A DNA stretch of 60,516 nt from Gemmatimonadota bacterium (GTDB lineage: Bacteria; Gemmatimonadota; Gemmatimonadetes; Gemmatimonadales; GWC2-71-9): contig JBGPPG010000005.1 of NCBI GenBank assembly GCA_041488455.1, positions 1 to 60,516 on the forward strand. Direction: 5' to 3'. The position numbers and the translations under genes are program-made. The stretch's first letter is position 1. Each line of letters begins with the position of its first letter. The notes under the pieces were generated by a model. The model was given only the letters and a program-made list of their open reading frames with translations, made no database searches and had not been told where the DNA came from. Below, piece after piece: positions 47,029 through 60,516 of this stretch.

Positions 47029-47060
47029 GTTGTCCCCGCAGGGATGTCGGGTGGAGCGAC

Positions 47061-47879: not shown

Positions 47880-47918
47880 TTGACAGGTGACCATACGGTC
47901 ACATATACTGGCCGTATG
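47880..47918 (+). promoter_or_regulatory. sigma70-like promoter with palindromic operator (leaderless layout)
   Basis: TTGACA (47880-85), N18, TATACT (47904-09), then 7 nt to the A of ATG 47916. Palindrome GTGACCATACGGTCAC (47887-47902) lies in the spacer. A second inverted repeat is CATACGG (47892-98) / CCGTATG (47912-18). Confidence 0.6.
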
Positions 47919-48704: not shown

Positions 48705-48754
48705 AATTGCGAAGTGAGGCTGAAGCCCGGTCAGGTGGCACACTGCTGCGTGCC

Positions 48755-49048: not shown

Positions 49049-49093
49049 GCTGCTCCGCTCCTTGGGTGTGCGTCGGCCACCTGCATGCGCGTG

Positions 49094-49753
49094 TCAGGCG
49101 GCTCCCTTTGGCGGCAGCTGCCGCCGCTCCAGACGCGCCGCGACCGCACTAAAGACCGCGTAGGCGGCCAGCGCCGTCCAGGCGGCGGCTCTGTCCGATA
49201 CCGGGGGCGGGCCGAAGAAGACGTAGACCTGAATAGCGAACATGACCACGCCGAACACCACCATCGGCCAACGGGGCGGGGCGACGACGCCGAAGTAGAG
49301 CCACATGCCCCCGAACAGCAGCGTTGCTTCAAGGCCCAGGGCGGCCACGGGCAGATTCCACAGCCCCAGCCCGACCTTCACCGCATCGTCGTACAACGGC
49401 AGGTCAGGGCGATGGACCAGAAGGTCCAGGAGCCAGTGCGACAGGACGGCGAGTCCGACCACGACTGCCGCCATGGGCTTGCCGCGCCGCTGGCCGAGTA
49501 CTCTGTAGACCAGCAGCGCTCCGGCCGACCAGAGAAGTGCCGCAAGCAGGCTGTGGGTATAGGGCATGTAGTAGAGATCGAGCGGATTCGAGGCCGTGAT
49601 GCCGGGAACGATCCTGACCTTTTCGATGCCGAGCAGGACGAAGGGTGCCCAGAACCCGTCGAGCAACTGGACCGCGACAAACAGACCCCACAACGGGATC
49701 GAGGGGTCGACTCTCTTCGCGGCGAAGCTAACGCCGTAGTGTCCGATGAACAT
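49094..49753 (-). CDS. membrane-bound metal-dependent hydrolase-like protein (YdjM/DUF457 type)
   Basis: 219 aa. MFIGHYG...YTHSLL...SHWLLDLLVH pattern; multiple TM helices. Confidence 0.65.
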   Translation of the reverse strand: MFIGHYGVSFAAKRVDPSIPLWGLFVAVQLLDGFWAPFVLLGIEKVRIVPGITASNPLDLYYMPYTHSLLAALLWSAGALLVYRVLGQRRGKPMAAVVVGLAVLSHWLLDLLVHRPDLPLYDDAVKVGLGLWNLPVAALGLEATLLFGGMWLYFGVVAPPRWPMVVFGVVMFAIQVYVFFGPPPVSDRAAAWTALAAYAVFSAVAARLERRQLPPKGAA

Positions 49754-49769
49754 TGCGCCGGCTGCCCCC

Positions 49770-49794
49770 CGTTCCGCTATCCGCCACCGCCGGC
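49770..49794 (-). repeat. intercistronic repeat family, partial copy J
   Basis: CGTTCCGCTATCCGCCACCGCCGGC closely matches CGCTCCGCTATCCGCACCGGCCGC of copy D. It overlaps the 3' end of the DHFR-like gene. Confidence 0.45.
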
Positions 49795-50307
49795 AACCAC
49801 ATACTCACTCTGAACGAGGCCGCTGGCGAACTGCCGCGTCCCGACGTGCCTGAGCACGACGTCGCGCTGTAGAGAGCCGAAGAGTGGGATGCCGGCACCG
49901 AGGAGCACAGGAATGCGCGTGATAATAAGGCGCTGGATAAGTCCGGCCTGGAGAAACCCCTGAATCGTGACCCCGCCATCCACGTATGCATGTCGCACGC
50001 CGCGCACGGCCAGCTGCGCCACGATCTCGGCCGGAGCCCCCGACATCCGCTCTACCACAGCCCCGGGGAGGGCAGGGGCGAGCGGGCGAGTGCTCAGCAC
50101 GAAAACGGGCTTCTCGCCATATGGCCACGCGTCGAAGGTCAAGACCGTCTCGAAGGTCTTGCGGCCGATCACAAGCGCATCCACGGTGGCCATGAACTCA
50201 TCGTAGCCGTGAGGTTCACCACCGCCCCGCGGTAGCCAGTCGAGGTCACCATTGACTCGAGCGATGAAGCCGTCGAGGCTCGTGGCAATAAAGACGGATG
50301 CCCTCAC
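49777..50307 (-). CDS. dihydrofolate reductase-like (RibD C-terminal domain) protein
   Basis: 176 aa from GTG 50307 (GAGGA 7 nt upstream). FIATSLDGFIARVNGDLDWL...ALVIGRKTFE pattern. Confidence 0.75.
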   Translation of the reverse strand: MRASVFIATSLDGFIARVNGDLDWLPRGGGEPHGYDEFMATVDALVIGRKTFETVLTFDAWPYGEKPVFVLSTRPLAPALPGAVVERMSGAPAEIVAQLAVRGVRHAYVDGGVTIQGFLQAGLIQRLIITRIPVLLGAGIPLFGSLQRDVVLRHVGTRQFASGLVQSEYVVAGGGG

Positions 50308-50329
50308 TGCGGAGTCCTCATGTTGCCGC

Positions 50330-50743
50330 CTAACGAAACGGCGCATCACCCGCGGCCACTCCACGGCCGCGTAGCAAGTACGCCAGGTACCCCGCTGCCA
50401 CGACATCGTACGCGAGGCAGAACTGTGGCCACCACACCGGTACTCCTGGATTGGCTATCAGCTGATCGTGAAAAGCATCAAAGATGCCGTGTGCTGCCAG
50501 GGCCGCTACGACGAACCAGAGAGAGTACTTGAACCCAACAATTGACGCCGCAAGAAAGAGTGTGATGACTGCGGTCTCAACGCCCAACGCGTGGTCGGAG
50601 CCACCCATAACCGCAAACAAGAGGTAGTATGAGGCAATGACGGCCATCATGGTGGGATAAAACGCCCGATCGCGATCAAGACGAATGAGCGTGGCCGCAC
50701 CGCTCACCGCGAGCGCGAGAAACGCGCCGATTAGATACGCCAA
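50330..50743 (-). CDS. membrane protein, hypothetical
   Basis: Track ORF 50330..50755, 4 TM helices. Second TTG (50743) preferred because GGAGG lies 5-6 nt upstream. Confidence 0.55.
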   Translation of the reverse strand: MAYLIGAFLALAVSGAATLIRLDRDRAFYPTMMAVIASYYLLFAVMGGSDHALGVETAVITLFLAASIVGFKYSLWFVVAALAAHGIFDAFHDQLIANPGVPVWWPQFCLAYDVVAAGYLAYLLRGRGVAAGDAPFR

Positions 50744-50791
50744 CTGGCCCTCCAATCATGTCATGCGCTCTAACGACTCTGCCTGCGCGTG

Positions 50792-51298
50792 TTACGTGGC
50801 GGGACACGCATCGTCCCGCGTCACCCCCTCCAAAGGGGCCGGCAGCCCCTCGGCATCGAAGGGCTGCGCGAAACTGAACGCGTGGGGCGTTGATCCGTGA
50901 GCCTCGAGATGCGCGACACGCGCCACGGCTTCCTCCACCGACGGACGATGCCCCGCCGGCACCCACCAGAGCGCGACGTAGACCCCTTCGAACCGCTCGA
51001 ACCACTCGCGCCGACGCCGCATCACCGAGGCATGAGCGCTGCGGTAGACATAGGCCCGCAAGGCGGCGAGATCAGCCCAGACTGACAGGTTGATGAGAAT
51101 GCGCTCGTCGGCGTAGGGCCGGACCGCCGTCGCGTCGCCATCCTCGGTCTGGAGACGCCACACGAATCCCCGAGCCTGATCGGCGAGCGCGTTGATCCCC
51201 GGCAGCTTGGCGACGAACTCCGCCATGATGGGGTCATTCATTTCGGCCCGTACTCGGCCAATGTTGACTTGGGCTACCTGCCACCGGGATTCTGTCAC
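50792..51298 (-). CDS. DUF3291 domain protein
   Basis: 168 aa from GTG 51298 (GGAG upstream) in track ORF 50792..52045. AQVNIGRVRAEMNDPIMAEF...GFVWRLQ...LWWVPAGHRPSVEEA signature. Confidence 0.75.
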   Translation of the reverse strand: MTESRWQVAQVNIGRVRAEMNDPIMAEFVAKLPGINALADQARGFVWRLQTEDGDATAVRPYADERILINLSVWADLAALRAYVYRSAHASVMRRRREWFERFEGVYVALWWVPAGHRPSVEEAVARVAHLEAHGSTPHAFSFAQPFDAEGLPAPLEGVTRDDACPAT

Positions 51299-51390
51299 GG
51301 TTCCACTCCGCAGTTCGAGACTGTCACCCCACCACCTACCGACAGCTGCATGCGCTGGCTGGGCCGCAGGGCCGGAGCAGGTCCGGCCCG

Positions 51391-51513
51391 CTACCACCGT
51401 TCTTGGTACGGCAGCAGCGGCGGCACGTCGCTCCGGATGCAACCGGACGAAATAGCGAGGAACACGGCTCCTGCAGCACGGACGCCTGCGAGCGACAGCT
51501 CTAGGGCGGGCAT
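51391..51513 (-). CDS. 40-aa ORF with good SD (weak; possibly a gene remnant)
   Basis: ATG 51513 with GGAG 6 nt upstream. Translation MPALELSLAGVRAAGAVFLAISSGCIRSDVPPLLPYQERW*. It lies in a 270-nt gap with no other candidate. Confidence 0.3.
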   Translation of the reverse strand: MPALELSLAGVRAAGAVFLAISSGCIRSDVPPLLPYQERW

Positions 51514-51555
51514 GTGATCTCCAACGGGTGAACCGGCACTTTGGCCTCTCGATGT

Positions 51556-51570
51556 CCCGCCACCGGGTTA
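51556..51570 (-). repeat. CCCGCCACCGG module (copy I) at the 3' end of the 51568..51828 gene
   Basis: CCCGCCACCGGGTTA here versus CCCGCCACCGGCTAT at 51910-51924. The two copies flank one small gene as direct repeats. Confidence 0.4.
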
Positions 51571-51828
51571 GTCCACCTGGACCTCGATACCGCCAACCAG
51601 ACCCGCCACGAAGTTGTACAGGGCGCAGCCAATGGCCGAGAAGATGAAGCCGCCGATGCCATAGAGGACCGGGAGGACGATCGCGAACCCGACGCTGAAG
51701 CGGCGCTCCGGCGAGAACAGTGCCGCGAGGATGAAAAAGGGAACGAGGATCAGCCCCATCAACGCGTAGAGGACGCCACAAACCTTCGCCGTTTGCCCGA
51801 CGGAAAAGCGGCTGAGACGCTGCACCAT
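51568..51828 (-). CDS. small membrane protein, hypothetical
   Basis: 86 aa from ATG 51828 (GGGAGG 6 nt upstream) in track ORF 51568..51948; 2-3 TM helices. Confidence 0.6.
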   Translation of the reverse strand: MVQRLSRFSVGQTAKVCGVLYALMGLILVPFFILAALFSPERRFSVGFAIVLPVLYGIGGFIFSAIGCALYNFVAGLVGGIEVQVD

Positions 51829-51863
51829 GTGGGCCTCCCTGGGCTGGGTTGAAGGGCGAGTGA

Positions 51864-51928
51864 CAGCTGCGGGCGAGGCACCCGCGGATCCGAATTCTAC
51901 GCTCCACTGCCCGCCACCGGCTATGAGG
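51864..51928 (-). repeat. intercistronic repeat family, copy B (most complete)
   Basis: The + strand reads CAGCTGCGGGCGAGGCACCCGCGGATCCGAATTCTACGCTCCACTGCCCGCCACCGGCTATGAGG. That is hairpin, core, then the CCGCCACCGG module. Confidence 0.65.
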
Positions 51929-51932
51929 AACC

Positions 51933-51970
51933 TTGACGGGCTGCACATAGCTGACTAAAGTCAGAGAATG
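51933..51970 (+). promoter_or_regulatory. sigma70-like promoter with inverted repeat (leaderless layout) for the MarR-GNAT gene
   Basis: TTGACG (51933-38), N17, TAAAGT (51956-61), then 7 nt to the A of ATG 51968. Inverted repeat CTGAC-TAAA-GTCAG (51951-51964) overlaps the -10. Confidence 0.55.
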
Positions 51971-52852
51971 TTGGCCGACGAGATTGCTCAGGTCCGGCGC
52001 TTCAATCGACTCGTTACGCAGCGCGCCGGAGCATTGAACGATCATTTCCTTGGGCGCGATCGCCCGCTGGGGGAGTCGCGCCTGCTTTACGAGATCGGTC
52101 CTGACGGAGCAGACCTCCGCGACCTGCGGCAGCGTCTCGGGCTCGATTCCGGCTACGTCACGCGTCTAGTCCAGGCCCTTGAGGAGAAGGGACTCGTCCG
52201 ACTGACCCAGGGAACGGCCGACCGACGGGTACGGAAGGCTCGGCTGACGTCGGCAGGGCGGCGGGAGGTCAGGGAAATGAACGAGCGTTCCGACGAGGTC
52301 GCTGCGGCCCTTCTCAATTCTCTGACGTCGGCTCACCGCCCCCGCTTGGTCGCCGCGATGGCGGAGGTCCATCGACTCCTGCAGCTGGCCGGCCTCCAGA
52401 TCGAGAGAGTCGATCCCGCAAGCCCGCCCGCCCGATGGTGCGTCGAGCAATACTTCGACGAGCTGGACCGGCGTTTCAAGTCCCGATTCGACCCGGCCGC
52501 CAGTCTGTCTGCCGAGGACCATGACCTCATCCCGCCTCGAGGCGCGTTCCTCGTGGCTTCCGCGGATGGGGAGGCGGTCGCCTGTGGCGCGGTGAAGTCG
52601 ATCTCCCCCGGTGTCGGGTCGCTCAAGCGAATGTGGGTTGCCGACACGGTACGTGGACTGGGTATTGGTCGGCGGATGCTGGATGCGCTGGAGGCCCAGG
52701 CACACGAGCTCGGGCTGACGACCCTTCGGCTCGAGACGAATCAAGCGCTTCAAGAGGCCATTCGCTTGTACCGAAGCGCTGGCTTTCGGGAGGTGGCTCC
52801 CTTCAACTCCGATCCCTACGCCCATCATTGGTTCGAGAAGAGCCTCGCCTGA
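51968..52852 (+). CDS. bifunctional MarR-family HTH / GNAT N-acetyltransferase
   Basis: 294 aa. N-terminal MarR wHTH (LRQRLGLDSGYVTRLVQALEEKGLV). C-terminal GNAT (LKRMWVADTVRGLGIGRRMLDALE...AIRLYRSAGF). Confidence 0.8.
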   Translation: MLADEIAQVRRFNRLVTQRAGALNDHFLGRDRPLGESRLLYEIGPDGADLRDLRQRLGLDSGYVTRLVQALEEKGLVRLTQGTADRRVRKARLTSAGRREVREMNERSDEVAAALLNSLTSAHRPRLVAAMAEVHRLLQLAGLQIERVDPASPPARWCVEQYFDELDRRFKSRFDPAASLSAEDHDLIPPRGAFLVASADGEAVACGAVKSISPGVGSLKRMWVADTVRGLGIGRRMLDALEAQAHELGLTTLRLETNQALQEAIRLYRSAGFREVAPFNSDPYAHHWFEKSLA

Positions 52853-52910
52853 CCCCGTTCCTCCGCTGAACTCCGTCTGAGTCGCAGGGCTCGTACGCAT
52901 ATTCCCGATG

Positions 52911-53633
52911 CTAGCGCGAGTGCGCCATGGCCTTCGTGCCCTTGGAGGCCTTAGCGATGAGCCCGGCCGCCGCGGCGGGCTGGGAAACGTAGATTGCGTG
53001 ACTTCCCGCCACCTCGACGACGGTCGCCCCTGCGCGCTTGGCCATGAACCGCTGGGCTGGCGGTGGAATCATGCGGTCATCGGTGGCGACCAGGTACCAG
53101 CTCGGCTTGGACCTCCAGGCTGGCTCGCTGATCGTCCCGCCGAGCGCCTCGAGGCCCCAAGGGACCTGGGCGTCTGCCATGAAGGCCGCCCGCTCTGGGT
53201 CGACGTCAGCCGCGAAGGAAGCGGCGAACTTTCCCCTGTCTAGGAGGAGATAGCCGTCCGTAGGCGGCAGGATTGGTGGGACCGGCGCGCCAGGTGGCGG
53301 ATCCTTGATTAGGGTGGACACCGACTCGCCCTTGTCCGGAGCGAAGGCGGCGATGTAGACGAGACCCACCACCTTGGGATCGTTGCCGGCTTCGGTGATC
53401 ACCGCGCCGCCGTACGAGTGACCAACGAGGATCACAGGGCCACTCTGCGCGGCCACAACGCGTCTAGTCGCGTTGACATCGTCGGCCAGCGAGATCGTCG
53501 GATTCTGGACAATGCTGACTGTAAGACCATCGCTGCGTAGGGCTTTGTAGACGGCCTCCCAGCCAGAGCCATCCACGAAACCGCCATGGACGAGAACGAT
53601 GTTCCTTGCCGCCGAGCCAGGTGTTTCAGGCAT
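52911..53633 (-). CDS. alpha/beta hydrolase
   Basis: 240 aa. NIVLVHGGFVDGSGW and the GHSYGG nucleophile elbow. AAGGAG 7 nt upstream. Confidence 0.85.
   Translation of the reverse strand: MPETPGSAARNIVLVHGGFVDGSGWEAVYKALRSDGLTVSIVQNPTISLADDVNATRRVVAAQSGPVILVGHSYGGAVITEAGNDPKVVGLVYIAAFAPDKGESVSTLIKDPPPGAPVPPILPPTDGYLLLDRGKFAASFAADVDPERAAFMADAQVPWGLEALGGTISEPAWRSKPSWYLVATDDRMIPPPAQRFMAKRAGATVVEVAGSHAIYVSQPAAAAGLIAKASKGTKAMAHSR
52912..52945 (-). repeat. copy 1 of a 34-35 bp duplication (3' end of the hydrolase gene)
   Basis: TAGCGCGAGTGCGCCATGGCCTTCGTGCCCTTGG here versus TAGCGCGAGTGCGTCCATGGCCTTCGTCCCTTTGG at 54753-54787. Confidence 0.7.
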
Positions 53634-53662
53634 GATGAGCTCCTTTCAAAGACACTGGGCAT

Positions 53663-53725
53663 CACCTGCGGGCGCAGGGCCCGCGGATCCGAGTTCTATG
53701 GTCCACCGCGGGCCGGCGCTCCGGC
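53663..53725 (-). repeat. intercistronic repeat family, copy C (diverged)
   Basis: CTGCGGGCGCAGGGCCCGCGGATCCGAGTTCTATGGTCCACCGCGGGCCGGCG aligns with copy B at roughly 80 percent. The TAG stop of the upstream gene lies inside the core. Confidence 0.6.
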
Positions 53726-54652
53726 CCGCACGGTTCTCCGGTACACATCGGTGCTCAAATATTTAAGGCCAGAGTCGGCCATGAGCGTGACCACCTTGGC
53801 ATCTGGCCCGAGCCGCTCCGCGACTCGAATCGCAGCGACGACGTTCGCTCCGGAAGACGTCCCCGCGAAGAGGCCCTCCTCCCGCGCGATGCGCCTCGCC
53901 ATGTCCTTCGCGTCGTCGGTGCTGACGGGCAGGATGTCGTCCACGAGCGTCGGCTCCCAGAGCGGAGGAGTGTAGCCAATCCCGACGCCTTCGATCTTAT
54001 GAGGGCCTGCCTGCCCTCCCAGCAACACCGAGGATTCCGCGGGTTCGACGACGACGCTCTTGATGCTCGGTTTGTATCGCTTCAGCACCGTGGCGACCCC
54101 ACGCGAAGAGGCCGCCGTACCCACGCAGTGAACGAAGGCGTCGATCTCCCCCTTCGTTTGACTCCAGATCTCCTCGCCCAGCGAGTAGTAGCCCGCGATG
54201 CTGTCCTGGTTGTTGAGCTGGTCGGTCCAGTAGGTGCGAGGCGCTTGGCTCAACCCGCGGGCAACCTCGATCATGTCCAGGATCAGCTTCTTGGTGGTGC
54301 GGCCTCCCTCGCTCGGGACGAGCGTCAGCTCAGCACCAAGCGCCGCCATGTGATCCAGCTTCTCCTGGCTGAACGCATCGGAGCTGACGATCAGGAGACG
54401 GTAGCCTCTGGCGGCGCAGACCAAGGCAAGCGATGCCCCTGTGCTGCCACCGGTGTAGTCGACGACCGTGTCTCCGGGCTTCAGGCGACCGTCCTCCTCC
54501 GCCCGTAAAATCACGGCCTGTGCCATCCGGTCCTTGACGCTGCCGGTTGGGTTCTCCCACTCGAGCTTCACGAAGATGTCCGCACAATTGGGTGGAACGA
54601 CCTTACGAAGTCGAACCATCGAGGTGTTTCCAATGGCATGGACAATGTCCAT
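53696..54652 (-). CDS. cysteine synthase / PLP-dependent beta-synthase family protein
   Basis: 318 aa. NPTGSVKDR (PLP lysine) and GTSSGAN motifs. Confidence 0.85.
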   Translation of the reverse strand: MDIVHAIGNTSMVRLRKVVPPNCADIFVKLEWENPTGSVKDRMAQAVILRAEEDGRLKPGDTVVDYTGGSTGASLALVCAARGYRLLIVSSDAFSQEKLDHMAALGAELTLVPSEGGRTTKKLILDMIEVARGLSQAPRTYWTDQLNNQDSIAGYYSLGEEIWSQTKGEIDAFVHCVGTAASSRGVATVLKRYKPSIKSVVVEPAESSVLLGGQAGPHKIEGVGIGYTPPLWEPTLVDDILPVSTDDAKDMARRIAREEGLFAGTSSGANVVAAIRVAERLGPDAKVVTLMADSGLKYLSTDVYRRTVRAGAPARGGP

Positions 54653-54655
54653 GGG

Positions 54656-54739
54656 TCAGGCTCCGAAAAAGATCTTCCGCTCCAGGAACAGGAACACGGC
54701 GACGTGGACGACGTTGATAGCGAGGATGAGCCCGAACAA
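54656..54739 (-). CDS. short hydrophobic ORF just upstream of the cysteine-synthase-like gene (start unclear)
   Basis: Frame ...TVAELFGLILAINVVHVAVFLFLERKIFFGA* has third-position GC about 88 percent. Its stop is 4 nt before ATG 54652. There is no convincing start or SD, so it may be a remnant. Confidence 0.3.
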   Translation of the reverse strand: MFGLILAINVVHVAVFLFLERKIFFGA

Positions 54740-54752
54740 CTCCGCGACGGTG

Positions 54753-54787
54753 TTAGCGCGAGTGCGTCCATGGCCTTCGTCCCTTTG
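54753..54787 (-). pseudogene. orphan 3' end of a paralogous alpha/beta hydrolase gene (last 12 codons or so plus stop)
   Basis: Near-identical to 52912-52945 with one 1-nt indel. It abuts repeat copy D directly. Confidence 0.6.
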
Positions 54788-54845
54788 GTTGCGAATTCTA
54801 CGCTCCGCTATCCGCACCGGCCGCGAAGGTGCGCCCTATCGAGTG
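54788..54845 (-). repeat. intercistronic repeat family, copy D
   Basis: GCGAATTCTACGCTCCGCTATCCGCACCGGCCGC; exact 13-mer at 54794-54806. Confidence 0.6.
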
Positions 54846-54857
54846 ATCGGGGTCGGG

Positions 54858-55199
54858 CTAACTACTTTGGTGGACGTACACCCACGCTTGTCTGCCGGAC
54901 GCGAGCATGGCGGCAACTCGCTTATATAGGAAGGCTGCTTCGTACTCGTCGACGCTGGCGAGTTCAGCGTCGGTGATCTCGAACACCATGCCGGGTACGC
55001 GGCTAGCTTCGTTTCCGTTGAACTTTGCGTTGGCGTGGTGTGTCTTCCCGCTTGTGATCACTACGTGTGGATCTTCGATCCTCACTAACGATTGCTCAAA
55101 CCTAAGAAGCTCGTCCCTCTGTCCATTGAGCCGTCTGCCAAGCGTCGATAGCTGCACATTTTCTTGTTGCAGGGTGCCGTATGAAAAGAGCAGTGGCAT
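54858..55199 (-). CDS. gamma-glutamylcyclotransferase-like (GGACT/AIG2) protein
   Basis: 113 aa. MPLLFSYGTLQ N-terminus. Visibly lower GC than its surroundings. Confidence 0.7.
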   Translation of the reverse strand: MPLLFSYGTLQQENVQLSTLGRRLNGQRDELLRFEQSLVRIEDPHVVITSGKTHHANAKFNGNEASRVPGMVFEITDAELASVDEYEAAFLYKRVAAMLASGRQAWVYVHQSS

Positions 55200-55236
55200 A
55201 GCGCGCGCGGTCCACTACATCGGGTTGCTTCGGACC

Positions 55237-55560
55237 CTAGCGCTGCGGGTCCACTCGGCGCATCTCCGATCCCTGCGCCAGCACCCGTTCGGCGAAGTCC
55301 AGGCGCTCCTGCGTCTCGCTCAGCTCCTGCCGCAGCTGGCTTGCGTCGGCCTCGAGCGCTTCGAGCCGAGCCTGGAGCTCGCTCCCGCCGGGAGGACCCT
55401 GCCGCAGGCGCTGGGCCCATAACCCGAACGCCACCGCGAGCGCCGCGTGAATCGTGGCATGCCACGGCTGGGCTTGCCCGGCCGCGAACCCGGCTCCGGC
55501 CAAGTTGATGACGCTCAGCACGACGGCGATCGGGTACCAGATCGCGGGCTTGAAGGTCAT
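55237..55560 (-). CDS. membrane-anchored coiled-coil protein, hypothetical
   Basis: 107 aa. Two TM helices, then LQARLEALEADASQLRQELSETQERL. Confidence 0.55.
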   Translation of the reverse strand: MTFKPAIWYPIAVVLSVINLAGAGFAAGQAQPWHATIHAALAVAFGLWAQRLRQGPPGGSELQARLEALEADASQLRQELSETQERLDFAERVLAQGSEMRRVDPQR

Positions 55561-55590
55561 GGCGAGATCCTTTCGAGTCTGCCTCGCGTG

Positions 55591-55944
55591 TTAGGCCGCC
55601 GGAGTTCCGGACTCACCGGGCGGCCCCTCGATCTCGAACTTCAAACGCCCCGGCCCCTCAACGTATGCAGCCCGCACGCCCCACGCCTTGTCGCTCGGAG
55701 GGTCCAGGGCCGCTGCACCCCGCTCGAGAACGGCGCGGAAGTCACGATCGCAGTCGTCAGTCTCGAAGCCAATCGTGGCGACACTGTCTGCCTCGGCGGC
55801 ATCCAGGATCAGCAAGAAGGCCCCGAAGCGGATGGTGGCCATCCGGTCGTTCTGGAACTGAGGCTCCAGCTGCCAGACCCGGTCGAGCCAGTCGAGGGCT
55901 GAACGGAGGTCGCGGACACCGAGGTGAATGTGATTGAGGTTCAT
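55591..55944 (-). CDS. VOC/glyoxalase family protein
   Basis: 117 aa. LNHIHLGVRDLRSALDWL pattern. Confidence 0.75.
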   Translation of the reverse strand: MNLNHIHLGVRDLRSALDWLDRVWQLEPQFQNDRMATIRFGAFLLILDAAEADSVATIGFETDDCDRDFRAVLERGAAALDPPSDKAWGVRAAYVEGPGRLKFEIEGPPGESGTPAA

Positions 55945-55959
55945 AGGGCGGTAAACTGG

Positions 55960-56221
55960 TTAGACAGCCACTGCAGAAGACGAATTGCAGGACTGCTCGG
56001 TCCTACGCTTATCGCGATCGCTGGATCCGAAGCGATCAATCTTCCAAATTCTCACCAACAACCCCCTGTCGTGTACCTCAACGGCACTTTGCTCTTTGTG
56101 GCTGGCCTCTCGATCGTCCGTGAGCAGCTCGAACGCCGTGTTCGCGTTGCTCATCGTTCTTCTCGCGATCGGGGTCGTCCTGACCTTCAAAGCGTATGGT
56201 TCCACGCAGGATCGTGAGTGA
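55960..56221. CDS. unresolved small ORF: either + 55985..56221 (tail-anchored TM peptide) or - 55960..56205 (hydrophilic)
   Basis: These two frames share the same wobble positions (about 71 percent GC), so codon bias cannot separate them. No family recognised. Confidence 0.3.
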
Positions 56222-56227
56222 CAGCGT

Positions 56228-57094
56228 TCACCCCTCGAGGCGGGCGTCCATGCCGAAATCAGCCTTCAACCGATCATACCAGGCATCGTCGTCCAAGGCT
56301 CCCCAGTCGACCCACTCCTCGTCGCTCATCGCCTTGCGCCATCCGAGAAACCCCTCCGCGTCAGGCCCCACCGGATGCCGCAGCCGCCACGTGCCGCTTT
56401 CGACGATTTCAACCACCTTCTCTCCCACCACTGAGGGCGGGGCGGGGTTCTTCAGCGAGGCTGTAAACATCGCGGCAAACCGGCGTTGCTGAGGATACGG
56501 CGATGGGTTCTGTGGCGTCTCGATGCGTCTGGCCATCGGTGTGTCGATGATGCCCGGCTCCACGATCGCGACCCGCACGTTGAACGGCTTCATTTCCTGG
56601 GCCAGCGACTCGCTGAGCGCCTCCAGGGCAAATTTCGAGGCCGTGTAGGGAGCCATGGGTGAACAAGCGACGTGACCTGCGACCGACGCGATATTGATGA
56701 TGCAGCCGCTACGGCGTTCCCGCATTGCCGGCAGCACACCCTGGATACAGCGGAGCGCGCCAAAGTAGTTCGTCTCCATCACCGCCCGGAACTCGGCCAA
56801 GGCAAGCTCCTCCACCGAGCCGGTGCGCTCAATACCCGCATTGTTGACGAGCACGTCGATTGCCCCGGCCTCGTTCACGATACGCTCGATCCCTGCCCTC
56901 ACCGACTCGTCGGAATCGACATCCATGGTGGCAATCGTGATGGGGAGCCCCTCTGATGCGGCGCGGTGCCCGAGCTCGGGGGCGCGACTTGGATTGCGCA
57001 TCGTCGCATAGACCTTGTGGCCGGCCTTGGCGAAGGCCACTGCGGTGGCCAACCCGATGCCCGAGCTGGTTCCTGTAATGAGGACTCGTGCCAT
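56228..57094 (-). CDS. SDR family oxidoreductase
   Basis: 288 aa from ATG 57094 (GGAG upstream). TGTSSGIG, NNAG and YTASK motifs. Confidence 0.85.
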   Translation of the reverse strand: MARVLITGTSSGIGLATAVAFAKAGHKVYATMRNPSRAPELGHRAASEGLPITIATMDVDSDESVRAGIERIVNEAGAIDVLVNNAGIERTGSVEELALAEFRAVMETNYFGALRCIQGVLPAMRERRSGCIINIASVAGHVACSPMAPYTASKFALEALSESLAQEMKPFNVRVAIVEPGIIDTPMARRIETPQNPSPYPQQRRFAAMFTASLKNPAPPSVVGEKVVEIVESGTWRLRHPVGPDAEGFLGWRKAMSDEEWVDWGALDDDAWYDRLKADFGMDARLEG

Positions 57095-57223
57095 CACCGA
57101 TCTCCTCTTGCATGGGACTTATGCGCCGGCACTGGCCTGATCGGGCGAAGGGTCTTCATTGTGGCAGCTCGCCCGGCGTGGCGATTCGCTTCTCAACCCG
57201 CGCACCTTCTTGAAGGAACCGTC

Positions 57224-57579
57224 ATGCACACCACTCTCAAGGATCTGGCCGCCATGGCCGCCTGCACCCTGCTCGCCACCAGGGCCGCCGCGCCCAGAGC
57301 GCCAAGGACATTCGCGGCCCGTCACCGTTGGTCGCCATCGAAAACGAAGCGGCGGCCAAGCTGATTGTCGATCCGCCGCTGCCCGAACCCCTGGCCCTGG
57401 GCCGCGTCTACATCCAGTACCGGACGGAGAACCTGCGCGTGGTGCCGGTGTTCGGCAAGGGCGCTCTCGACGTGTCGCCGCGCATCGGCCATATCCACAT
57501 CACCGTCGACGACGCGCCGTGGAGTCATCACCAGCGAAACGGTGAAGTTCACGCTCCCGATCCGAAAGCCCCAGAGTGA
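57224..57579 (+). pseudogene. DUF6130-like gene with N-terminal frameshift and internal deletion
   Basis: ATG 57224 (AAGGA upstream) opens the signal peptide MHTTLKDLAAMAACTLLATRAAA. The mature part (AQSAKDIRGPSPLVAIENEAAAKLIVDPPLPEPLA...HITVDDAPW) is in another frame. After DDAPW the coding signal jumps frame again (SETVKFTLP). Confidence 0.6.
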
Positions 57580-57588
57580 GGATCACTC

Positions 57589-57699
57589 ATCCCCAAAGAA
57601 AACAAGCTCGATCGTCGACGCTTTCTGGGAACCGCCGCTGCAAGCATCGTTGCCGCAGAGATGTCATTCGTGGGAGCTGCGTACGGGAACGCCTGCTGA
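57589..57699 (+). pseudogene. orphan twin-arginine signal peptide remnant
   Basis: Translation IPKENKLDRRRFLGTAAASIVAAEMSFVGAAYGNAC*. GAGGA lies 6 nt upstream of an ATC where ATG would be expected. A stop follows about 36 codons later. Confidence 0.45.
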
Positions 57700-57779
57700 G
57701 CCCACCTGGGCGTGGCGCTGTCCGCGCACGGGCGCGTTCCTGAACCATGACGTGGGGGGCTACCTGCTGCATGCCTGTG

Positions 57780-58016
57780 TTAGGCTCCGCCCCTGGTCCC
57801 CACGCCGAGGAGGCGCACGATCAGATAGACGCACCCCAGCGCGATCGCAATCTGCCCCGCCACGGTAAACCAAAACCATCCCGGCTGCCCCGCGCGATCG
57901 AAGTGGGCGCCGCGACTGGCCCGGGCTATCCCGGTGGTCAGGGCCCGAGCCGCATGGTAGGCGACCCAGAGGCCGAGGACGAGTGCGAGGATCACAGCGG
58001 CGCTTGTCGCGAGCAT
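57780..58016 (-). CDS. small membrane protein, hypothetical
   Basis: 78 aa from ATG 58016 in track ORF 57780..58088; two TM helices. Confidence 0.5.
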   Translation of the reverse strand: MLATSAAVILALVLGLWVAYHAARALTTGIARASRGAHFDRAGQPGWFWFTVAGQIAIALGCVYLIVRLLGVGTRGGA

Positions 58017-58050
58017 GGGATTCGGCGCTCCTGAAGCAGACACCGGCGGG

Positions 58051-58899
58051 TTAGGCGCCGTTGGCCACAATGGCATCAATCGCGGCAAAGGCTGCCCGAC
58101 AGACCCCTTGATCGTGGTCGTCTTCGGGCGAGTAGGAGGTGAGCGCGGCAGCGGCGAGCGGAACCCGGGCGCGGATTGCGGCCACGGCGGCGGTCAGCTG
58201 GGGAAGGGAGAGGCCGTTGGGGACCGGCAGGTAGTTCGCGTGGCCGACGGCGGGATCCAGCACATCGAGGTCCAAGTGGAGATAGCCGAGGGTATCCGCC
58301 AACGGCGTCCGCGCCAGGAGGCCCGGGAGCCCTTCCGGGATCTGCCCGACTGGGATGGCGGTAATGGCCGACCCCTGGAGAAGCGCCGCCTCTGGCCCAT
58401 CGAGGTCCCGGGCACCCAGCAGAAAGGTGGCCTCGGCCGCGACGGGCTGAAATCCCGGCACGGTGGCTCCCAGGTGATGCCAACACAGGCCCGTCGTCAT
58501 GGCGAGGCCCATGCCATCCAGGAAGCCGGTCGTGGTAGTCTCCGGCGTATTGCAGTCGCCGTGGGCATCGAACCAGAATGTGGCGCGGCGCGCGGGCGTC
58601 AGGCCGCTCAGGGTGCCCACTGCCGTGTTGCAATTGCCGCTGAGCACCAGCGGAAAGTGACCGGCAGTCCGAGCGGACCGAACGGCAGTGGCTAGTCGCC
58701 GGGCCAGTTCGAACGCGGTCCGGATTTCGGCGGGTGGGTACGCCGGGTCATCCTCGACGATGTGGATGGCGGTAACGACGTGTCCCTGACGGTGGAGGTG
58801 AGCAGGGAGCCCGGCACGGAGGAGGTGCTCGGGGCCGGCCCCGCAGCGCCAGGCGCGCTGGCCGGAATCGTATGGGACGAGCAGAAGTTGGATATCCAT
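58051..58899 (-). CDS. arginase family hydrolase (arginase/agmatinase/formimidoylglutamase-like)
   Basis: 282 aa from ATG 58899. DAHGD and HLDLDVLDP manganese-ligand motifs. Confidence 0.8.
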   Translation of the reverse strand: MDIQLLLVPYDSGQRAWRCGAGPEHLLRAGLPAHLHRQGHVVTAIHIVEDDPAYPPAEIRTAFELARRLATAVRSARTAGHFPLVLSGNCNTAVGTLSGLTPARRATFWFDAHGDCNTPETTTTGFLDGMGLAMTTGLCWHHLGATVPGFQPVAAEATFLLGARDLDGPEAALLQGSAITAIPVGQIPEGLPGLLARTPLADTLGYLHLDLDVLDPAVGHANYLPVPNGLSLPQLTAAVAAIRARVPLAAAALTSYSPEDDHDQGVCRAAFAAIDAIVANGA

Positions 58900-58939
58900 G
58901 CGGGAGATCAGGGAAGACGGAAGGCGCCCAACGACGCTG

Positions 58940-59003
58940 TTCGCCACCGGCTATCGGGGCCAGACAGAGCTGATGCGTTCCGCGCCCCGCAGCTGCATCC
59001 GCG
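58940..59003 (-). repeat. intercistronic repeat family, partial copy E (modules rearranged)
   Basis: TTCGCCACCGGCTATCGGGG (58940-59), then GAGCTGATGCGTTCCGCGCCCCGCAGCTGCATCCGCG. The hairpin module is inverted relative to copy B. Confidence 0.45.
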
Positions 59004-59020
59004 TGTTAGACGCCGGCGGA

Positions 59021-59191
59021 TCATGGATGCTTCGAATCTCCAGGGTTGACCTCAGCACCAACCTCCGGGGGCGACCCAGGCCTTGTCGCGATGCGCCAGG
59101 TCAGGACGAGCGAGATCGCACCGATGCCGATGAGCGCGAGCAGGGTCATGTAGAAGACCGGATCCCCAAAGCGCGGGGGTTTGCGGTTCAT
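59021..59191 (-). CDS. small membrane protein, hypothetical
   Basis: Track ORF 59021..59221; one TM helix (FYMTLLALIGIGAISLVL). Start uncertain (ATG 59191 or GTG 59221). Confidence 0.45.
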   Translation of the reverse strand: MNRKPPRFGDPVFYMTLLALIGIGAISLVLTWRIATRPGSPPEVGAEVNPGDSKHP

Positions 59192-59268
59192 GGTTTCGTG
59201 CTCGGCCGCTGAAGTCGGCACTGCTCAATTGGGCGAAGCCGAGTCCCGGCCGTGCGCCTAACGAAAAT

Positions 59269-59303
59269 GCGTATCAGCTGCGGGCGATCGTGCCCTCGCG
59301 CGG
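59269..59303 (-). repeat. hairpin module of the repeat family (copy H)
   Basis: GCGTATCAGCTGCGGGCGATCGTGCCCTCGCGCGG here versus CAGCTGCGGGCGAGGCACCCGCGG in copy B. Confidence 0.45.
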
Positions 59304-59311
59304 CAGCAAGC

Positions 59312-59818
59312 TCAGCGGGATACCCGAAATGGCTCCGCCTCGGCCAAGTATGTCTCGAACTCCTGATCCAAAGCCACCCGGCGTTCGCGCCACAATGCGC
59401 GCATTGCCCGCTCGTCGGGCACCCTCCAGTACCCGGGCGAGACCAGCGCCGCTGCCCGGTCTAGCGCCAAGAGGATGACGGCCGCGACCGGATACGAGCT
59501 CTGCTCCGCGCTCTGCACCCGCCGTATGGCTTCCTCGAAGACCGCATCCCCCACGTGCAATGTGACGGGCCCGAAGAAGCGATAGCCTCGCCGGGACAAC
59601 TGGTCGACCACATTGAGCTCCATCCAGGGCCGGGCTTGAAGGTTCGCCCGAGTTCCGGGCGAAGCGATGTCCAAGAAGAATAGGTGCTGGTCATCCCAGA
59701 CTCGAATGGTCCCTTTCGGCGACACGTTCGGCTTGCCGTCCGGCGACACGGTACCGGCAAAGCACAGGTGGGCGGCCTGAATTACGGCCCGCATGTCGGC
59801 AGTCAGCGTCACGCTCAT
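59312..59818 (-). CDS. pyridoxamine 5'-phosphate oxidase family protein
   Basis: 168 aa from ATG 59818 in track ORF 59312..59896. CFAGTVSPDGKPNVSPKGT...LFFLDIASPGTRANL pattern. Confidence 0.75.
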   Translation of the reverse strand: MSVTLTADMRAVIQAAHLCFAGTVSPDGKPNVSPKGTIRVWDDQHLFFLDIASPGTRANLQARPWMELNVVDQLSRRGYRFFGPVTLHVGDAVFEEAIRRVQSAEQSSYPVAAVILLALDRAAALVSPGYWRVPDERAMRALWRERRVALDQEFETYLAEAEPFRVSR

Positions 59819-59850
59819 CTTGGCCTCTCGTGCTAGGTGCCTGACGACAC

Positions 59851-59890
59851 GGCGCATCAGCTGCAGGCTCTCAAGCCCGCGCCTGCGCTG
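59851..59890 (-). repeat. hairpin module of the repeat family (copy K)
   Basis: GGCGCATCAGCTGCAGGCTCTCAAGCCCGCGCCTGCGCTG. It shares the CAGCTGC...stem layout and lies 35-70 nt upstream of ATG 59818. Confidence 0.4.
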
Positions 59891-59949
59891 ACTCACGTTC
59901 GGCAGCGTGCGTGATGGTTAGCTCGCGCTCCGGGTGGTATCCCTCGCTC

Positions 59950-60456: not shown

Positions 60457-60516
60457 TTGATCCTCGGCGCTCCACGGTTGGCGTCTCATCGTCGCGGCGT
60501 GCAGCCGCCTCACGAA

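What the first reader, a model, noticed from the sequence alone, without database searches (positions are those of the whole stretch)
49770..59890. Modular intercistronic repeat family concentrated in the last 11 kb (outliers at 26.9 and 42.6 kb)
Sequence:
- Three gene-gene gaps contain the exact 13-mer AATTCTACGCTCC on the + strand (42578-90, 51893-905, 54794-806). A fourth has a diverged version (GAGTTCTATGGTCC, 53691-704).
- Read on the coding (minus) strand, the fullest copy (B, 51864-51928) is CCTCATAGCCGGTGGCGGGCAGTGGAGCGTAGAATTCGGATCCGCGGGTGCCTCGCCCGCAGCTG.
- It has three modules: a CCGGTGGCGG module, a GGAGCGTAGAATTCGGAT core, and a CCGCGGG..CCCGCAG hairpin followed by CAGCTG.
- Copies B and C align over about 60 nt at roughly 80 percent.
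- Other gaps carry subsets of the modules: J 49770-94, I 51556-70, D 54788-845, E 58940-59003 (hairpin inverted), H 59269-303, K 59851-90, G 26902-55.
- A possibly related CTAACACGCG context follows the stop at 55591 and recurs at 59002-59011 (intergenic, inside the attC-like candidate 58926-59011).

Placement: all copies have the same orientation relative to the minus-strand genes and sit between a stop and the next start.

Possible roles:
- A promoter (TAGAAT or TAAGAT as -10) plus a 5' stem-loop.
- A REP/BIME-like element stabilising mRNA.
- Recombination or cassette boundaries.

Evidence for the cassette-boundary idea:
- One small gene (51568..51828) is flanked by direct CCCGCCACCGG repeats.
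- A truncated hydrolase 3' end abuts copy D.
- One gap (58926-59011) has an attC-like layout: GTCTAAC ... GTTGGGC, 86 bp, with pairing flanks and one bulged base.

Evidence against it: no integrase is present in the window, and most gaps are too short for attC sites.
Basis: seen in the sequence. Interest (0 to 1): 0.7.

Follow-up and report, generated by a model that had tools for sequence, protein, structure and literature searches.

The report
Eroded integron attC sites, cassette array
The repeats between these genes are worn-down pieces of one ~140-base integron recombination site (attC), so the last 20 kb of the window is an old gene-cassette array, probably of a Gemmatimonadales bacterium; this is a known kind of element, not a new one.

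Summary
The repeat family is real. It is not a set of independent modules. Every significant copy aligns, in order and only on the minus strand, to part of one ~140-nt element that is abundant in soil and sediment metagenomes: GCCTAAC-CNGCGCATGCAGCCGAC...CCGGTGGCGG..GGAACGTAGGTTTGTGCGGGCG...CGCCYGCAGCTGATGCGCNNGTC-GTTAGGC.

In relatives this element:
- ends each single-gene unit of same-strand arrays;
- folds as an attC site, with R''/R' and L''/L' pairing, bulged bases on the R''-L'' arm and compensatory changes;
- lies directly downstream of integron integrases that pass TIGR02249 in three loci.

In the window no junction keeps a complete site. Each is a deletion derivative: 5' arm only, centre only, 3' arm only, or both R boxes with the middle removed. 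My covariance model gives at most 27.9 bits here, against 50-137 bits for intact sites.

Single window cassettes recur in other loci with different neighbours and order, and homology starts exactly at G|TTAGGC.

Relics reach down to 40.4 kb. The 26.9 kb outlier is at chance level. No intI lies in the window; it would be expected beyond 60516.

Verdict: a decaying integron cassette array, a new member of a known kind, of modest interest.

The parts
40351..60516 (-). Integron-type cassette array. It runs off the window end. Small, functionally unrelated genes lie almost all on the minus strand. G+C falls to 63-67% over about 48-60 kb, against about 69% upstream.
   Evidence: In order down the minus strand they are: DUF4395, PNPOx-like, arginase family, SDR, glyoxalase, GGACT, PALP, alpha/beta hydrolase, MarR-GNAT (+ strand), DUF3291, RibD_C, cupin, ArsR-AHSA1 (+ strand), glyoxalase, GyrI-like, SnoaL, glyoxalase, DUF1499 and DUF3280. 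G+C profile. attC-derived relics lie at the junctions.
60507..60513 (-). R' core variant GTGAGGC, the 5' boundary of the DUF4395 cassette.
   Evidence: homology of window, L003 and L063 upstream of DUF4395 begins exactly here. L003 has GTTAGGC and L063 has GTTGGGC. Coordinates.
59839..59923 (-). Relic K. It keeps the 3' 72 positions of the attC (model 69-140) and ends in R' GTCAGGC. The true 5' arm is deleted.
   Evidence: nhmmer E = 2.2e-9. The same cassette in L151 keeps the full attC. The covariance model gives 27.9 bits with many non-standard pairs.
59256..59301 (-). Relic H. Only the 3' arm is left (model 96-140), with an intact R' GTTAGGC.
   Evidence: E = 1.1e-7; E = 2.9e-6.
58926..59011 (-). 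Relic E. R'' GTCTAAC and the 5' half (model 2-77) are joined to ..AACAGCGTC-GTTGGGC. The L' arm is missing.
   Evidence: searches (E = 8e-4; E = 6.4e-7), (15.8 bits).
58017..58056 (-). R'' GCCTAAC holding the arginase-family stop codon, followed by a 33-nt stub before the next ATG.
   Evidence: Read by eye; too short to score on its own.
57758..57785 (-). 5'-arm relic GCCTAACACAGGCATGCAGC (model 1-28). The stop codon lies inside R''.
   Evidence: (E = 2.3, weak alone), family D5.
55577..55596 (-). 5'-arm relic GCCTAACACGCGAGGCAGAC. The glyoxalase stop codon lies inside R''.
54788..54837 (-). Relic D. Only the centre is left (model about 51-96), including GGAGCGTAGAATT.
   Evidence: (E = 4.7e-3).
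54752..54790 (-). Last ~12 codons of a lost hydrolase cassette plus its R''-like CGCTAAC.
   Evidence: D10 (90% identity to 52925-52945).
53648..53715 (-). Relic C. It covers model 67-134. The 5' arm and the R' core are gone, and the relic is fused 15 nt upstream of the hydrolase ATG.
   Evidence: E = 8.3e-12. L138 has the same cassette at 96.6% identity behind an intact attC and a 118-nt leader.
52847..52881 (-). Shrunken attC of the hydrolase cassette, CTCAGAC..GTTCAGCGGAGGAACG..GTCAGGC.
   Evidence: (aligned with the full attC of L138).
51864..51924 (-). Relic B. It covers model 59-122. Neither R box is present.
   Evidence: E = 1.8e-11; E = 2.7e-3.
51556..51573 (-). Relic I. R'' GACTAAC (stop codon inside) is joined directly to CCGGTGGCGGG.
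51339..51364 (-). 5'-arm relic GCCCAGCCAGCGCATGCAGCTGTCGG (model 2-26).
   Evidence: E = 0.024; E = 0.014. Contigs of runs X1, X2 and X5 join this piece to the 3'-arm piece at 59256-59287.
50768..50797 (-). Thirty-nt mini-site ACGTAAC-ACGCGCAGGCAGAGTC-GTTAGAG. Both R boxes are present and about 110 nt of interior are deleted.
   Evidence: family D5.
50328..50356 (-). 3'-arm relic ..GGGTGATGCGCCGTTTC-GTTAGGC. It now encodes the last residues and the stop codon of ORF 50330..50755.
   Evidence: (E = 0.08). Homology to L194 (90%) stops at 50351.
49771..49794 (-). Relic J, CCGGCGGTGGCGGATAGCGGAACG (model about 59-82).
   Evidence: (E = 25), so not significant alone. It is supported only by co-linearity, strand and position.
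49076..49099 (-). 5'-arm relic GCCTGACACGCGCATGCAGGTGGC (model 1-24). The stop codon lies inside R''.
   Evidence: (E = 0.9), family D5.
43946..44001 (-). Centre and 3' relic upstream of the GyrI-like gene.
   Evidence: (E = 9.8e-3), family D8.
42522..42623 (-). Relic A. It covers model 44-128 with a 17-27 nt insertion. The R' core is replaced by the SnoaL start region.
   Evidence: E = 3.9e-5; E = 2.8e-3.
40380..40423 (-). Lowest relic found (model 72-115). Its inner box reads TATAAT.
   Evidence: (E = 1.7e-3).

Best explanation
The repeats are remnants of attC sites. attC is the site, recognised in folded single-stranded form, at which an integron integrase (IntI) excises and inserts gene cassettes.

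Window 40.35-60.5 kb is the promoter-distal, old part of a chromosomal cassette array, probably of a Gemmatimonadales bacterium. It could equally be a CALIN, that is an array without its integrase.

The intact site of this lineage is about 100-144 nt long. In order it has:
- R'' (GCCTAAC);
- L'' (GCGCATGCAGC);
- a long interior that includes CCGGTGGCGG and the box GGAACGTAGGWTTGTGCG;
- L' (GCAGCTGATGCGC);
- R' (G|TTAGGC).

In the window every site has lost one or more of these parts through internal or terminal deletions. Most copies therefore can no longer form the R/L stem that IntI needs. The cassettes are in effect fixed in place, and a few open reading frames now run into the remnants.

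Shown here:
- homology of the copies to one element;
- the attC-like structure of that element;
- its linkage to intI in relatives;
- reshuffling of single cassettes between genomes.

Inferred:
- loss of recombination activity;
- deletion by slippage at the hairpin-forming repeats;
- the position of intI beyond 60516.
For: 1. One element.
- HMMs built only from outside sequences hit the window solely on the minus strand, at gene junctions. Each hit covers a different, co-linear slice of the 140-position model.
- Contigs from three public runs join the window's 5'-arm piece (51339-51363) to its 3'-arm piece (59256-59287) through a middle that contains CCGAATTCTATGGTCC.

2. The element is an attC.
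- There are 343 hits in 120 loci, 213 of them full length, and orientation is uniform in 119 of 120 loci.
- The RNAalifold consensus pairs R'' with R' over 6 bp. An unpaired spacer follows, then L''/L' with unpaired bases on the R''-L'' arm.
- 98.9% of cells are paired, against at most 47.5% in the slid controls. 42 cells have changes on both sides, against 14.6 in shuffles, with 0 of 500 shuffles as high.
- These features match the published definition of EHB, UCS and VTS (PMC2727003).

3. Link to integrase.
- L142, L160 and L183 carry ORFs scoring 426.5, 432.8 and 387.2 bits against TIGR02249, whose cut-off is 265.
- L142 reads intI, then GTTAGGC, then three cassettes, each ending in GYCTAAC..GCATGCAGCTG....CTGCAGCTGATGCGCGAGTCC-GTTAGGC.
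- The model scores those three sites, which were not used to build it, at 50.7-61.3 bits.

4. Cassette behaviour.
- The RibD_C, TM141, hydrolase, PALP, 107-aa and DUF4395 genes each have homologs in different loci, singly and in a different order.
- The shared sequence upstream of DUF4395 begins exactly at the R' core in window, L003 and L063.

5. Erosion.
- The model's best window scores are 27.9 and 15.8 bits, against 50-137 bits for intact sites.
- L151 keeps a full attC after DUF4395, where the window lacks model positions 1-78 and L003 has an independent deletion.
- L138 keeps the attC and a 118-nt leader upstream of the hydrolase gene, both of which the window has lost.

6. The gene content is typical of cassettes, and G+C drops over the array.
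Against: - No intI or attI is in the window (tblastn). I could not read beyond about 61.2 kb, because L001 ends there. The link to an integrase therefore rests on relatives, not on this genome.
- The intact-site alignment was collected with a pattern for the 3' arm and a regular expression for the 5' arm. Much of the invariance of the arms is by construction, and real covariation sits in only three pairs.
- Loss of activity is inferred from structure only. K, E and the 30-nt mini-site keep two R boxes and might still recombine at a low rate.
- Partial sites also occur in the otherwise healthy array of L063, where 7 of 16 hits are partial. Some truncation may therefore be normal for this lineage.
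- The taxonomic assignment rests on nearest relatives of mobile genes and on the attC family, not on marker genes.
Confidence: 0.88

Rival explanations
1. The copies are working attC sites of an active integron, merely shorter and more variable than usual. The array is then still being shuffled.
For: - K, E and the 50768-50797 mini-site retain both an R''-like and an R'-like box.
- K folds into a stable hairpin of -32.1 kcal/mol.
- attC sites are known to tolerate great sequence variation (PMC2727003).
- Cassette order differs between relatives.
Against: - Most junctions lack R', R'' or the L partner altogether. Examples are B, C, H, D, A and the 5'-arm stubs.
- The model scores them far below intact sites.
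- K's GCCGAAC is a deletion junction, not the original R''.
- Several R' cores are mutated in the GTT triplet, to GTC or GTG.
Confidence: 0.1
2. The retained inner box (GGAGCGTAGAATT, or TAGGTTTG in relatives) together with the downstream hairpin acts as a promoter and 5' leader for the next gene. Remnants would then be kept by selection for expression and not only by chance. This can hold together with an attC origin.
For: - The box is conserved in all three length classes, inside what should be the variable part of the site. Column frequencies for TAGGWTTG run from 54% to 94%.
- A, B and D share the exact 13-mer while their flanks differ.
- In A, B, C and the 40.4 kb relic the box lies 50-66 nt upstream of an ATG, and at 40.4 kb it reads TATAAT.
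- From my own knowledge, not tested here: TAnnTTTG is the -7 promoter motif of Bacteroidota, which belong to the same superphylum.
Against: - No sigma-70-type -35/-10 pair is found at any copy.
- The conserved block is 18 nt long. It includes positions that a -10 element would not constrain, such as GRANCG and the GG of TAGG.
- No RNA data exist for this organism.
- No paper connects this motif with Gemmatimonadota.
- Sharing of the 13-mer can be explained by common descent within one array.
Confidence: 0.15
3. The copies are REP/BIME-like intergenic palindromes that stabilise mRNA or bind nucleoid proteins, unrelated to integrons.
For: - The copies are intergenic and G+C-rich, and they contain hairpins.
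Against: - The copies are confined to one 20-kb stretch of a 60-kb window and all lie on one strand.
- The same family heads arrays next to intI.
- The ends carry the integron core sites.
- The units they bound move as single genes.
Confidence: 0.02
4. The truncated copies are artefacts of metagenome assembly collapsing or mis-joining repeats.
For: - attC repeats do break assemblies. Logan contigs of run X1 are short and end near the repeats.
Against: - An independently assembled contig (L001) reproduces K, H and E at 99.7% identity over 1789 nt.
- Other X1 contigs span B (51120-53108, 2 differences), the 50.3-50.8 kb relics, J and A (table 8).
- A mis-join inside a repeat would give whole sites, not sites with interior deletions.
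Confidence: 0.03

Closest known systems
attC sites of sedentary chromosomal integrons, for example the Vibrio cholerae repeats (VCR)
   Same: - The sites are long, more than 100 nt, and resemble each other closely within a lineage.
- There is one site per cassette, all in one orientation.
- R''/R' core sites of RYYYAAC/GTTRRRY type are present.
- The L stem has extra bases on the R''-L'' arm, and a branched interior (VTS) follows (definition in PMC2727003).
   Different: - The sequence family is different, and the host is a soil or sediment Gemmatimonadales-type organism.
- In the intI-linked relatives, the integrase is read in the same direction as the cassettes.
- The interior carries a conserved 18-nt box.
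- In this window no site is complete.
[quoted passage not shown] 2016 (PMC4889954)
   Same: - It is an array of cassettes with attC-derived sites and no intI within the sequence at hand.
- The proposed origins include loss of, or separation from, the integrase (PMC8618304).
   Different: - A CALIN is defined by two or more sites that pass the IntegronFinder attC model within 4 kb. That model was not available here.
- With my own family model only one window site reaches E < 0.01.
- The window may simply be cut before its intI.
Integron remnants in Treponema phagedenis, and the 'atypical' Treponema integron layout (PMC3607928)
   Same: - attC sites and cassettes remain without intI, are described as static, and may include degenerate sites.
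- In Treponema the cassettes have the same orientation as intI, as in L142, L160 and L183.
   Different: - The phylum and the attC family are different.
- Here the erosion can be followed site by site against intact copies of the same cassettes in other genomes.
Promoter-bearing cassettes of Vibrionaceae superintegrons (PMC11014356)
   Same: - Both address how genes far from Pc in long arrays come to be expressed.
- The conserved inner box here could play such a part.
   Different: - There the promoters lie in gene-less cassettes and were measured.
- Here the candidate lies inside the attC itself and is untested. I saw only the abstract of that paper.

Membership tests
integron attC site: the full-length relatives of the window repeats | Inverse core R'' (RYYYAAC) at the 5' end and core R' (G|TTRRRY) at the 3' end. 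| tested here: met
   GCCTAAC/GTCTAAC ... GTTAGGC. Caveat: the copies were collected with patterns that require these ends. The three L142 sites next to intI show them independently at the 5' end.
integron attC site: the full-length relatives of the window repeats | An imperfect palindrome in which R''-L'' pairs with L'-R', with an unpaired central spacer and extra-helical bases on the R''-L'' arm. | tested here: met
   pairs 2-7/147-152 and 10-28/123-140, with unpaired columns 12, 16, 21 and 23 on the 5' arm; 98.9% of cells paired, compensatory changes at 25/127, 26/126 and 27/125, and 0 of 500 shuffles as high. Definition: PMC2727003.
integron attC site: the full-length relatives of the window repeats | One site at the 3' end of each cassette, with all sites of an array in one orientation. 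| tested here: met
   119 of 120 loci uniform; arrays of 4-7 pattern matches on one strand.
integron attC site: the full-length relatives of the window repeats | Physical linkage of the array to an integron-integrase gene and an attI-type junction. | tested here: met
   TIGR02249 at 387-433 bits against a 265 cut-off in L142, L160 and L183; GTTAGGC junction 236 nt after intI in L142; attC at L160 10-138, L183 8521-8660.
integron attC site: the full-length relatives of the window repeats | Recombined by IntI as folded bottom-strand DNA. | not testable with these tools
   The only evidence is indirect: single cassettes occur in different contexts, with the boundary at G|TTAGGC.
integron attC site: the copies in the window themselves | Complete R''-L''...L'-R' architecture able to form the R and L stems. 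| tested here: not met
   no hit spans the model; best scores 27.9 and 15.8 bits with many non-standard pairs, against 50-137 bits for intact sites. The copies are derived from attC sites but are not intact members.
integron attC site: the copies in the window themselves | Linkage to intI in the same replicon. | not testable with these tools
   No IntI-like ORF is in the window. The only further sequence (L001) adds 660 nt.
CALIN (Cury et al. 2016) | Two or more sites passing the IntegronFinder attC covariance model less than 4 kb apart on one strand, with no intI nearby. | not testable with these tools
   The IntegronFinder model is not available and Rfam has no match. My own model gives one site at E < 0.01. 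Definition.
REP/BIME-type intergenic repeats | Dispersed through the genome's intergenic regions, commonly in both orientations, and not tied to mobile single-gene units. | tested here: not met
   all significant copies lie on one strand within 40.4-60.5 kb, and none lies in 1-40 kb. Only this 60-kb window could be examined.
sigma-70-type promoter | -35 and -10 hexamers at 16-18 nt spacing. | tested here: not met
   two sites in 42-60.5 kb, both on the + strand, at the chance level of 2.1 expected, and none at the repeats. Promoter types of Gemmatimonadota are not covered by the scan.

The most novel reading that the evidence does not exclude
The 18-nt box inside the attC (GRANCGTAGGWTTGTGCG; GGAGCGTAGAATT in this genome, TATAAT at 40.4 kb) may be a promoter or protein-binding element carried by every cassette boundary of this lineage. 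When attC sites erode, the box and the hairpin behind it would then be kept as the expression signal of the now-fixed gene. On this reading the recombination sites have been converted into ordinary promoters and leaders.
Probability: 0.12. Interest if true: 0.55.

Novelty: new member of a known kind. Interest (0 to 1): 0.3.

Why it matters
The result turns an unexplained repeat into a clear annotation. About 20 kb of this genome is an integron cassette array, and its roughly 25 small genes came in as mobile cassettes.

It also defines an attC family of 100, 128 and about 140 nt that is common in soil and sediment metagenomes, with more than 120 contigs found before the scan hit its limit. Integrons of the likely host phylum, Gemmatimonadota, are only listed in reviews and not described.

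The window is a useful worked example of how cassette arrays decay. The same cassettes can be compared with intact and with eroded sites in different genomes. This shows independent deletions of the hairpin arms and reading frames extended into the remnants.

In practice, tools that need whole attC sites would probably miss or under-call this array.

Tried and rejected
- Rfam scan of the whole window: no family reached its gathering score.
- Looking up the PNPOx-like protein found only a 2.4-kb Logan contig. I could not walk to a possible intI.
- The genome-contig scan with the DUF4395 protein gave 80 loci. Only one has an intI within 10 kb: L072, from an Acidobacteriota MAG. The Gemmatimonadales loci L002, L003, L004 and L063 show none within reach.
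The ORFs were then validated with NCBIfam.
- A strict RYYYAAC...GTTRRRY search finds a single pair in the window. This first made the attC idea look weak. It was explained once the full-length element was known.
- I first read K (59903..59839) as a neat 65-nt attC. Comparison with L151 shows that its 'R''' is a deletion junction.
- G at 26.9 kb is rejected as a member (E = 22).
- Sigma-70 promoter and terminator scan: at chance level.
- No RNA runs hold the region.
- Joints in public contigs were examined as possible excision products. They are better read as full-length sites of other genomes that match two window fragments.
- A literature search for TAnnTTTG in Gemmatimonadota found nothing.

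Full report
**Observation.**
- The 13-mer AATTCTACGCTCC occurs exactly three times, at 42578, 51893 and 54794, with a diverged copy at 53692.
- B and C match at 79% over 52 nt.
- CCGGTGGCG flanks the small gene at 51571-51828.
- A fragment of a hydrolase 3' end abuts D (D10).
- 58926-59011 is the only strict RYYYAAC...GTTRRRY pair at attC spacing.

Two listed copies do not stand on their own. G at 26.9 kb scores E = 22 and J at 49.78 kb scores E = 25.

**Setting.** From about 48 kb to the end, G+C falls from about 69% to 63-67%. From 60.5 kb down to about 40 kb the genes are small, functionally unrelated and almost all on the minus strand. They include DUF4395, a PNPOx-like protein, an arginase-family protein, SDR, glyoxalases, GGACT, a PALP enzyme, an alpha/beta hydrolase, DUF3291, RibD_C, cupin, GyrI-like, SnoaL, DUF1499 and several short membrane proteins. 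This is the usual look of an integron cassette array. No integrase-like ORF is in the window.

**Relatives and the full-length element.**
- The nearest relatives of the DUF4395 gene are in Gemmatimonadales MAGs, at 76-87% identity.
- One of them, L063, carries about 16-20 copies of a repeat ending in GCAGCTGATGCGC...GTTAGGC, all on the gene strand.
- A scan of metagenome contigs for that 3' motif returned 120 stretches before it hit its limit. Many are arrays with all copies on one strand.
- Extending each match upstream to the nearest RYYYAAC..TGCAGC showed that the complete element comes in three sizes, about 100, 128 and 137-144 nt.
- The 140-nt class reads GCCTAAC CCGCGCATGCAGCCGAC ... CCGGTGGCGG.. 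GGAACGTAGGTTTGTGCGGGCG ... CGCCYGCAGCTGATGCGCAAGTC GTTAGGC.
- A subfamily (L088, L122, L144, L194) has GGACCGTAGAATTCGGA..CGGCGGGCATTCCGCCCGCAGCTG. This is nearly the sequence of window copies B and C.

**Link to integrase.**
- A tblastn probe found IntI-like ORFs in L142, L160 and L183, with partial hits in L106 and L121.
- The three full ORFs pass NCBIfam TIGR02249 (integron integrase) at 426.5, 432.8 and 387.2 bits, against a cut-off of 265.
- L142 reads as a textbook integron. It has intI (1282-2277), a GTTAGGC junction at 2513, then three short ORFs. Each ORF is followed by GYCTAAC-TAGCG(C/T)(A/T)TGCA(G/A)CTG...CTGCAG(C/T)TGA(T/A)(G/A)CGC..GTC(C)-GTTAGGC.
- In all of these loci the integrase is read in the same direction as the cassettes. 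This layout is already known from Treponema (PMC3607928).

**Structure.**
- On 63 full-length copies, RNAalifold pairs R'' with R' over 6 bp. It leaves a spacer unpaired, then pairs L'' with L' over 15 pairs, with unpaired bases at columns 12, 16, 21 and 23, all on the R''-L'' arm.
- 98.9% of cells form standard pairs, against at most 47.5% when the partners are slid.
- 42 cells carry changes on both sides, against 14.6 in shuffles, with 0 of 500 shuffles as high. These changes sit at pairs 25/127, 26/126 and 27/125.
- These are the features that define folded attC sites, namely UCS, EHBs on the R''-L'' arm and VTS (PMC2727003).
- Caveat: the arm sequences were partly fixed by the way the copies were collected, so most pairs cannot vary.

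**The window copies.**
- HMMs built only from outside sequences hit the window on the minus strand alone. Each hit covers a different slice of the model:

| Copy | Window coordinates | Model positions | E-value |
|---|---|---|---|
| C | 53715..53648 | 67-134 | 8e-12 |
| B | 51924..51864 | 59-119 | 2e-11 |
| K | 59911..59839 | 69-140 | 2e-9 |
| H | 59301..59256 | 96-140 | 1e-7 |
| E | 59010..58935 | 2-78 | 6e-7 |
| A | 42623..42524 | 44-128 | 4e-5 |
| (unnamed) | 40423..40380 | 72-115 | 2e-3 |
| D | 54820..54788 | 63-96 | 5e-3 |
| (unnamed) | 44001..43946 | 74-127 | 1e-2 |
| (unnamed) | 51363..51339 | 2-26 | 1e-2 |
| (unnamed) | 50355..50328 | 111-138 | 0.08 |

- Shorter stubs are readable by eye. 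R'' boxes that hold the stop codon lie at 58056, 57785, 55596, 51573 and 49099. A 30-nt site at 50797..50768 keeps both R boxes but has lost about 110 nt of interior.
- No junction keeps the whole site.
- A covariance model of the intact family scores the window at 27.9 and 15.8 bits at best, with many non-standard pairs.
- It scores intact sites at 50-137 bits. These include sites not used to build it: L142 at 50.7-61.3, L082 at 74-78, L160 at 80 and L151 at 83-99 bits.

**Cassette mobility and erosion seen directly.**
- Single window genes have homologs in different loci, alone and in a different order:
  - RibD_C in L002 and L046;
  - the 141-aa membrane protein in L194 (90%);
  - the hydrolase in L138 (96.6%);
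  - PALP in L036;
  - the 107-aa protein in L002 and L004;
  - DUF4395 in L151, L063, L003, L002 and L004.
- Upstream of DUF4395 the sequence shared by window, L003 and L063 begins exactly at the R' core. This reads GTGAGGC, GTTAGGC and GTTGGGC respectively, and the neighbours beyond it are unrelated.
- Downstream of the same gene, L151 keeps a full attC, the window lacks model positions 1-78, and L003 has a different deletion.
- Upstream of the hydrolase gene, L138 has an intact attC and a 118-nt leader. In the window the remnant C is fused 15 nt before the ATG.
- Some reading frames now end inside remnants, namely 50330..50755 and the tail of 53696..54652.

**Independent support.**
- A Logan contig (L001) reproduces K, H and E at 99.7% identity.
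- Other contigs of the same run span B, J, A and the 50.3-50.8 kb remnants (table 8).
- Contigs of three runs join the window's 5'-arm fragment to its 3'-arm fragment through a middle that carries the core motif. These are full-length sites in other genomes of the same communities (tables 5 and 5c).

**Alternatives.**
- REP/BIME-like repeats are contradicted by the clustering, the single strand and the integrase link.
- Assembly artefact is contradicted by the independent contigs.
- A sigma-70 promoter is not detected at the repeats, and no RNA data exist.
- One point stays open. An 18-nt box inside the supposedly variable interior is conserved in all three length classes. It is what survives in A, B, C and D and in the 40.4 kb relic, 50-66 nt upstream of an ATG in four of them, and it reads TATAAT at 40.4 kb.
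- From my own knowledge, TAGGTTTG fits the TAnnTTTG -7 motif of Bacteroidota. I found no paper that extends this motif to Gemmatimonadota. I give this reading a low probability.

**Limits.**
- Whether this genome still has an integrase is unknown.
- Loss of activity is inferred from structure.
- The taxonomic label comes from relatives of mobile genes and from the attC family.
- Partial sites are also common in L063, where 7 of 16 hits are partial.

**Novelty.**
- Integrons, CALINs and integron remnants are established (PMC4889954, PMC3607928).
- Gemmatimonadota are listed among integron-bearing phyla (PMC8618304).
- This is therefore a new member of a known kind. Its main value is as a correct annotation and as a clear example of attC decay.

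Noticed in passing
window 57200-57750 (+ strand): A broken DUF6130 gene lies on the + strand. It has a frameshift near 57300 and matches only profile positions 4-104 of 153. A short fragment with a twin-arginine-like signal (RRRFLGTAAAS) follows. The whole stretch sits in a 660-nt 'gap' of the minus-strand array, and a 71% DNA homolog is in L124.
   Followed up: partly
window 51929-51967: The only + strand cassette gene is a MarR-GNAT fusion (51968-52849). A perfect palindrome, CTGACTTTAGTCAG, lies just upstream of it and overlaps a promoter-like TTGACG-17-TAAAGT site at 51933-51961. This is probably a self-regulated operator.
   Followed up: no
alignment A1 columns 89-106; window 42579-42591, 51894-51906, 54795-54807, 40400-40415: An 18-nt box, GRANCGTAGGWTTGTGCG, is conserved inside the 'variable' interior of the attC in the 100-, 128- and 140-nt classes. 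It resembles the TAnnTTTG -7 promoter motif of Bacteroidota. In this genome it reads TAGAAT, and TATAAT at 40.4 kb.
   Followed up: partly
L142 1282-2519; L160 718-1743; L183 7198-8112; L072 669-1634: In every intI-linked locus of this attC family, the integrase gene is read in the same direction as the cassettes, not divergently as in class 1 integrons.
   Followed up: partly
window 50328-50356 and 53696-53715: Two reading frames run into attC remnants. The last residues and the TAG stop of ORF 50330..50755 are encoded by the 3' arm and GTTAGGC. The tail of the PALP ORF, beyond the Pfam domain, runs into relic C.
   Followed up: partly
window 5838-8283, 30864-31103, 36233-36966: Genes outside the detectable array have DNA homologs inside the cassette arrays, or in the flanks, of L201, L063, L036, L002 and L018, at 69-77% identity. 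No attC remnant is detectable next to them. They may be much older, fully domesticated cassettes, or simply widespread small genes.
   Followed up: no
window 55945-56230: A 285-nt stretch lies between the SDR and glyoxalase genes. It has no convincing ORF and contains a terminator-like hairpin at 56006..55987. A lone GTCTAAC lies directly before the glyoxalase ATG. This is possibly the remains of a lost cassette.
   Followed up: no
L002 and L004, around 9600-10000: In these Gemmatimonadales MAGs the DUF4395 gene has no attC at all upstream. In L004 it is preceded, after a roughly 30-nt gap, by a homolog of the window's 107-aa protein. This is a further stage of cassette fusion.
   Followed up: partly
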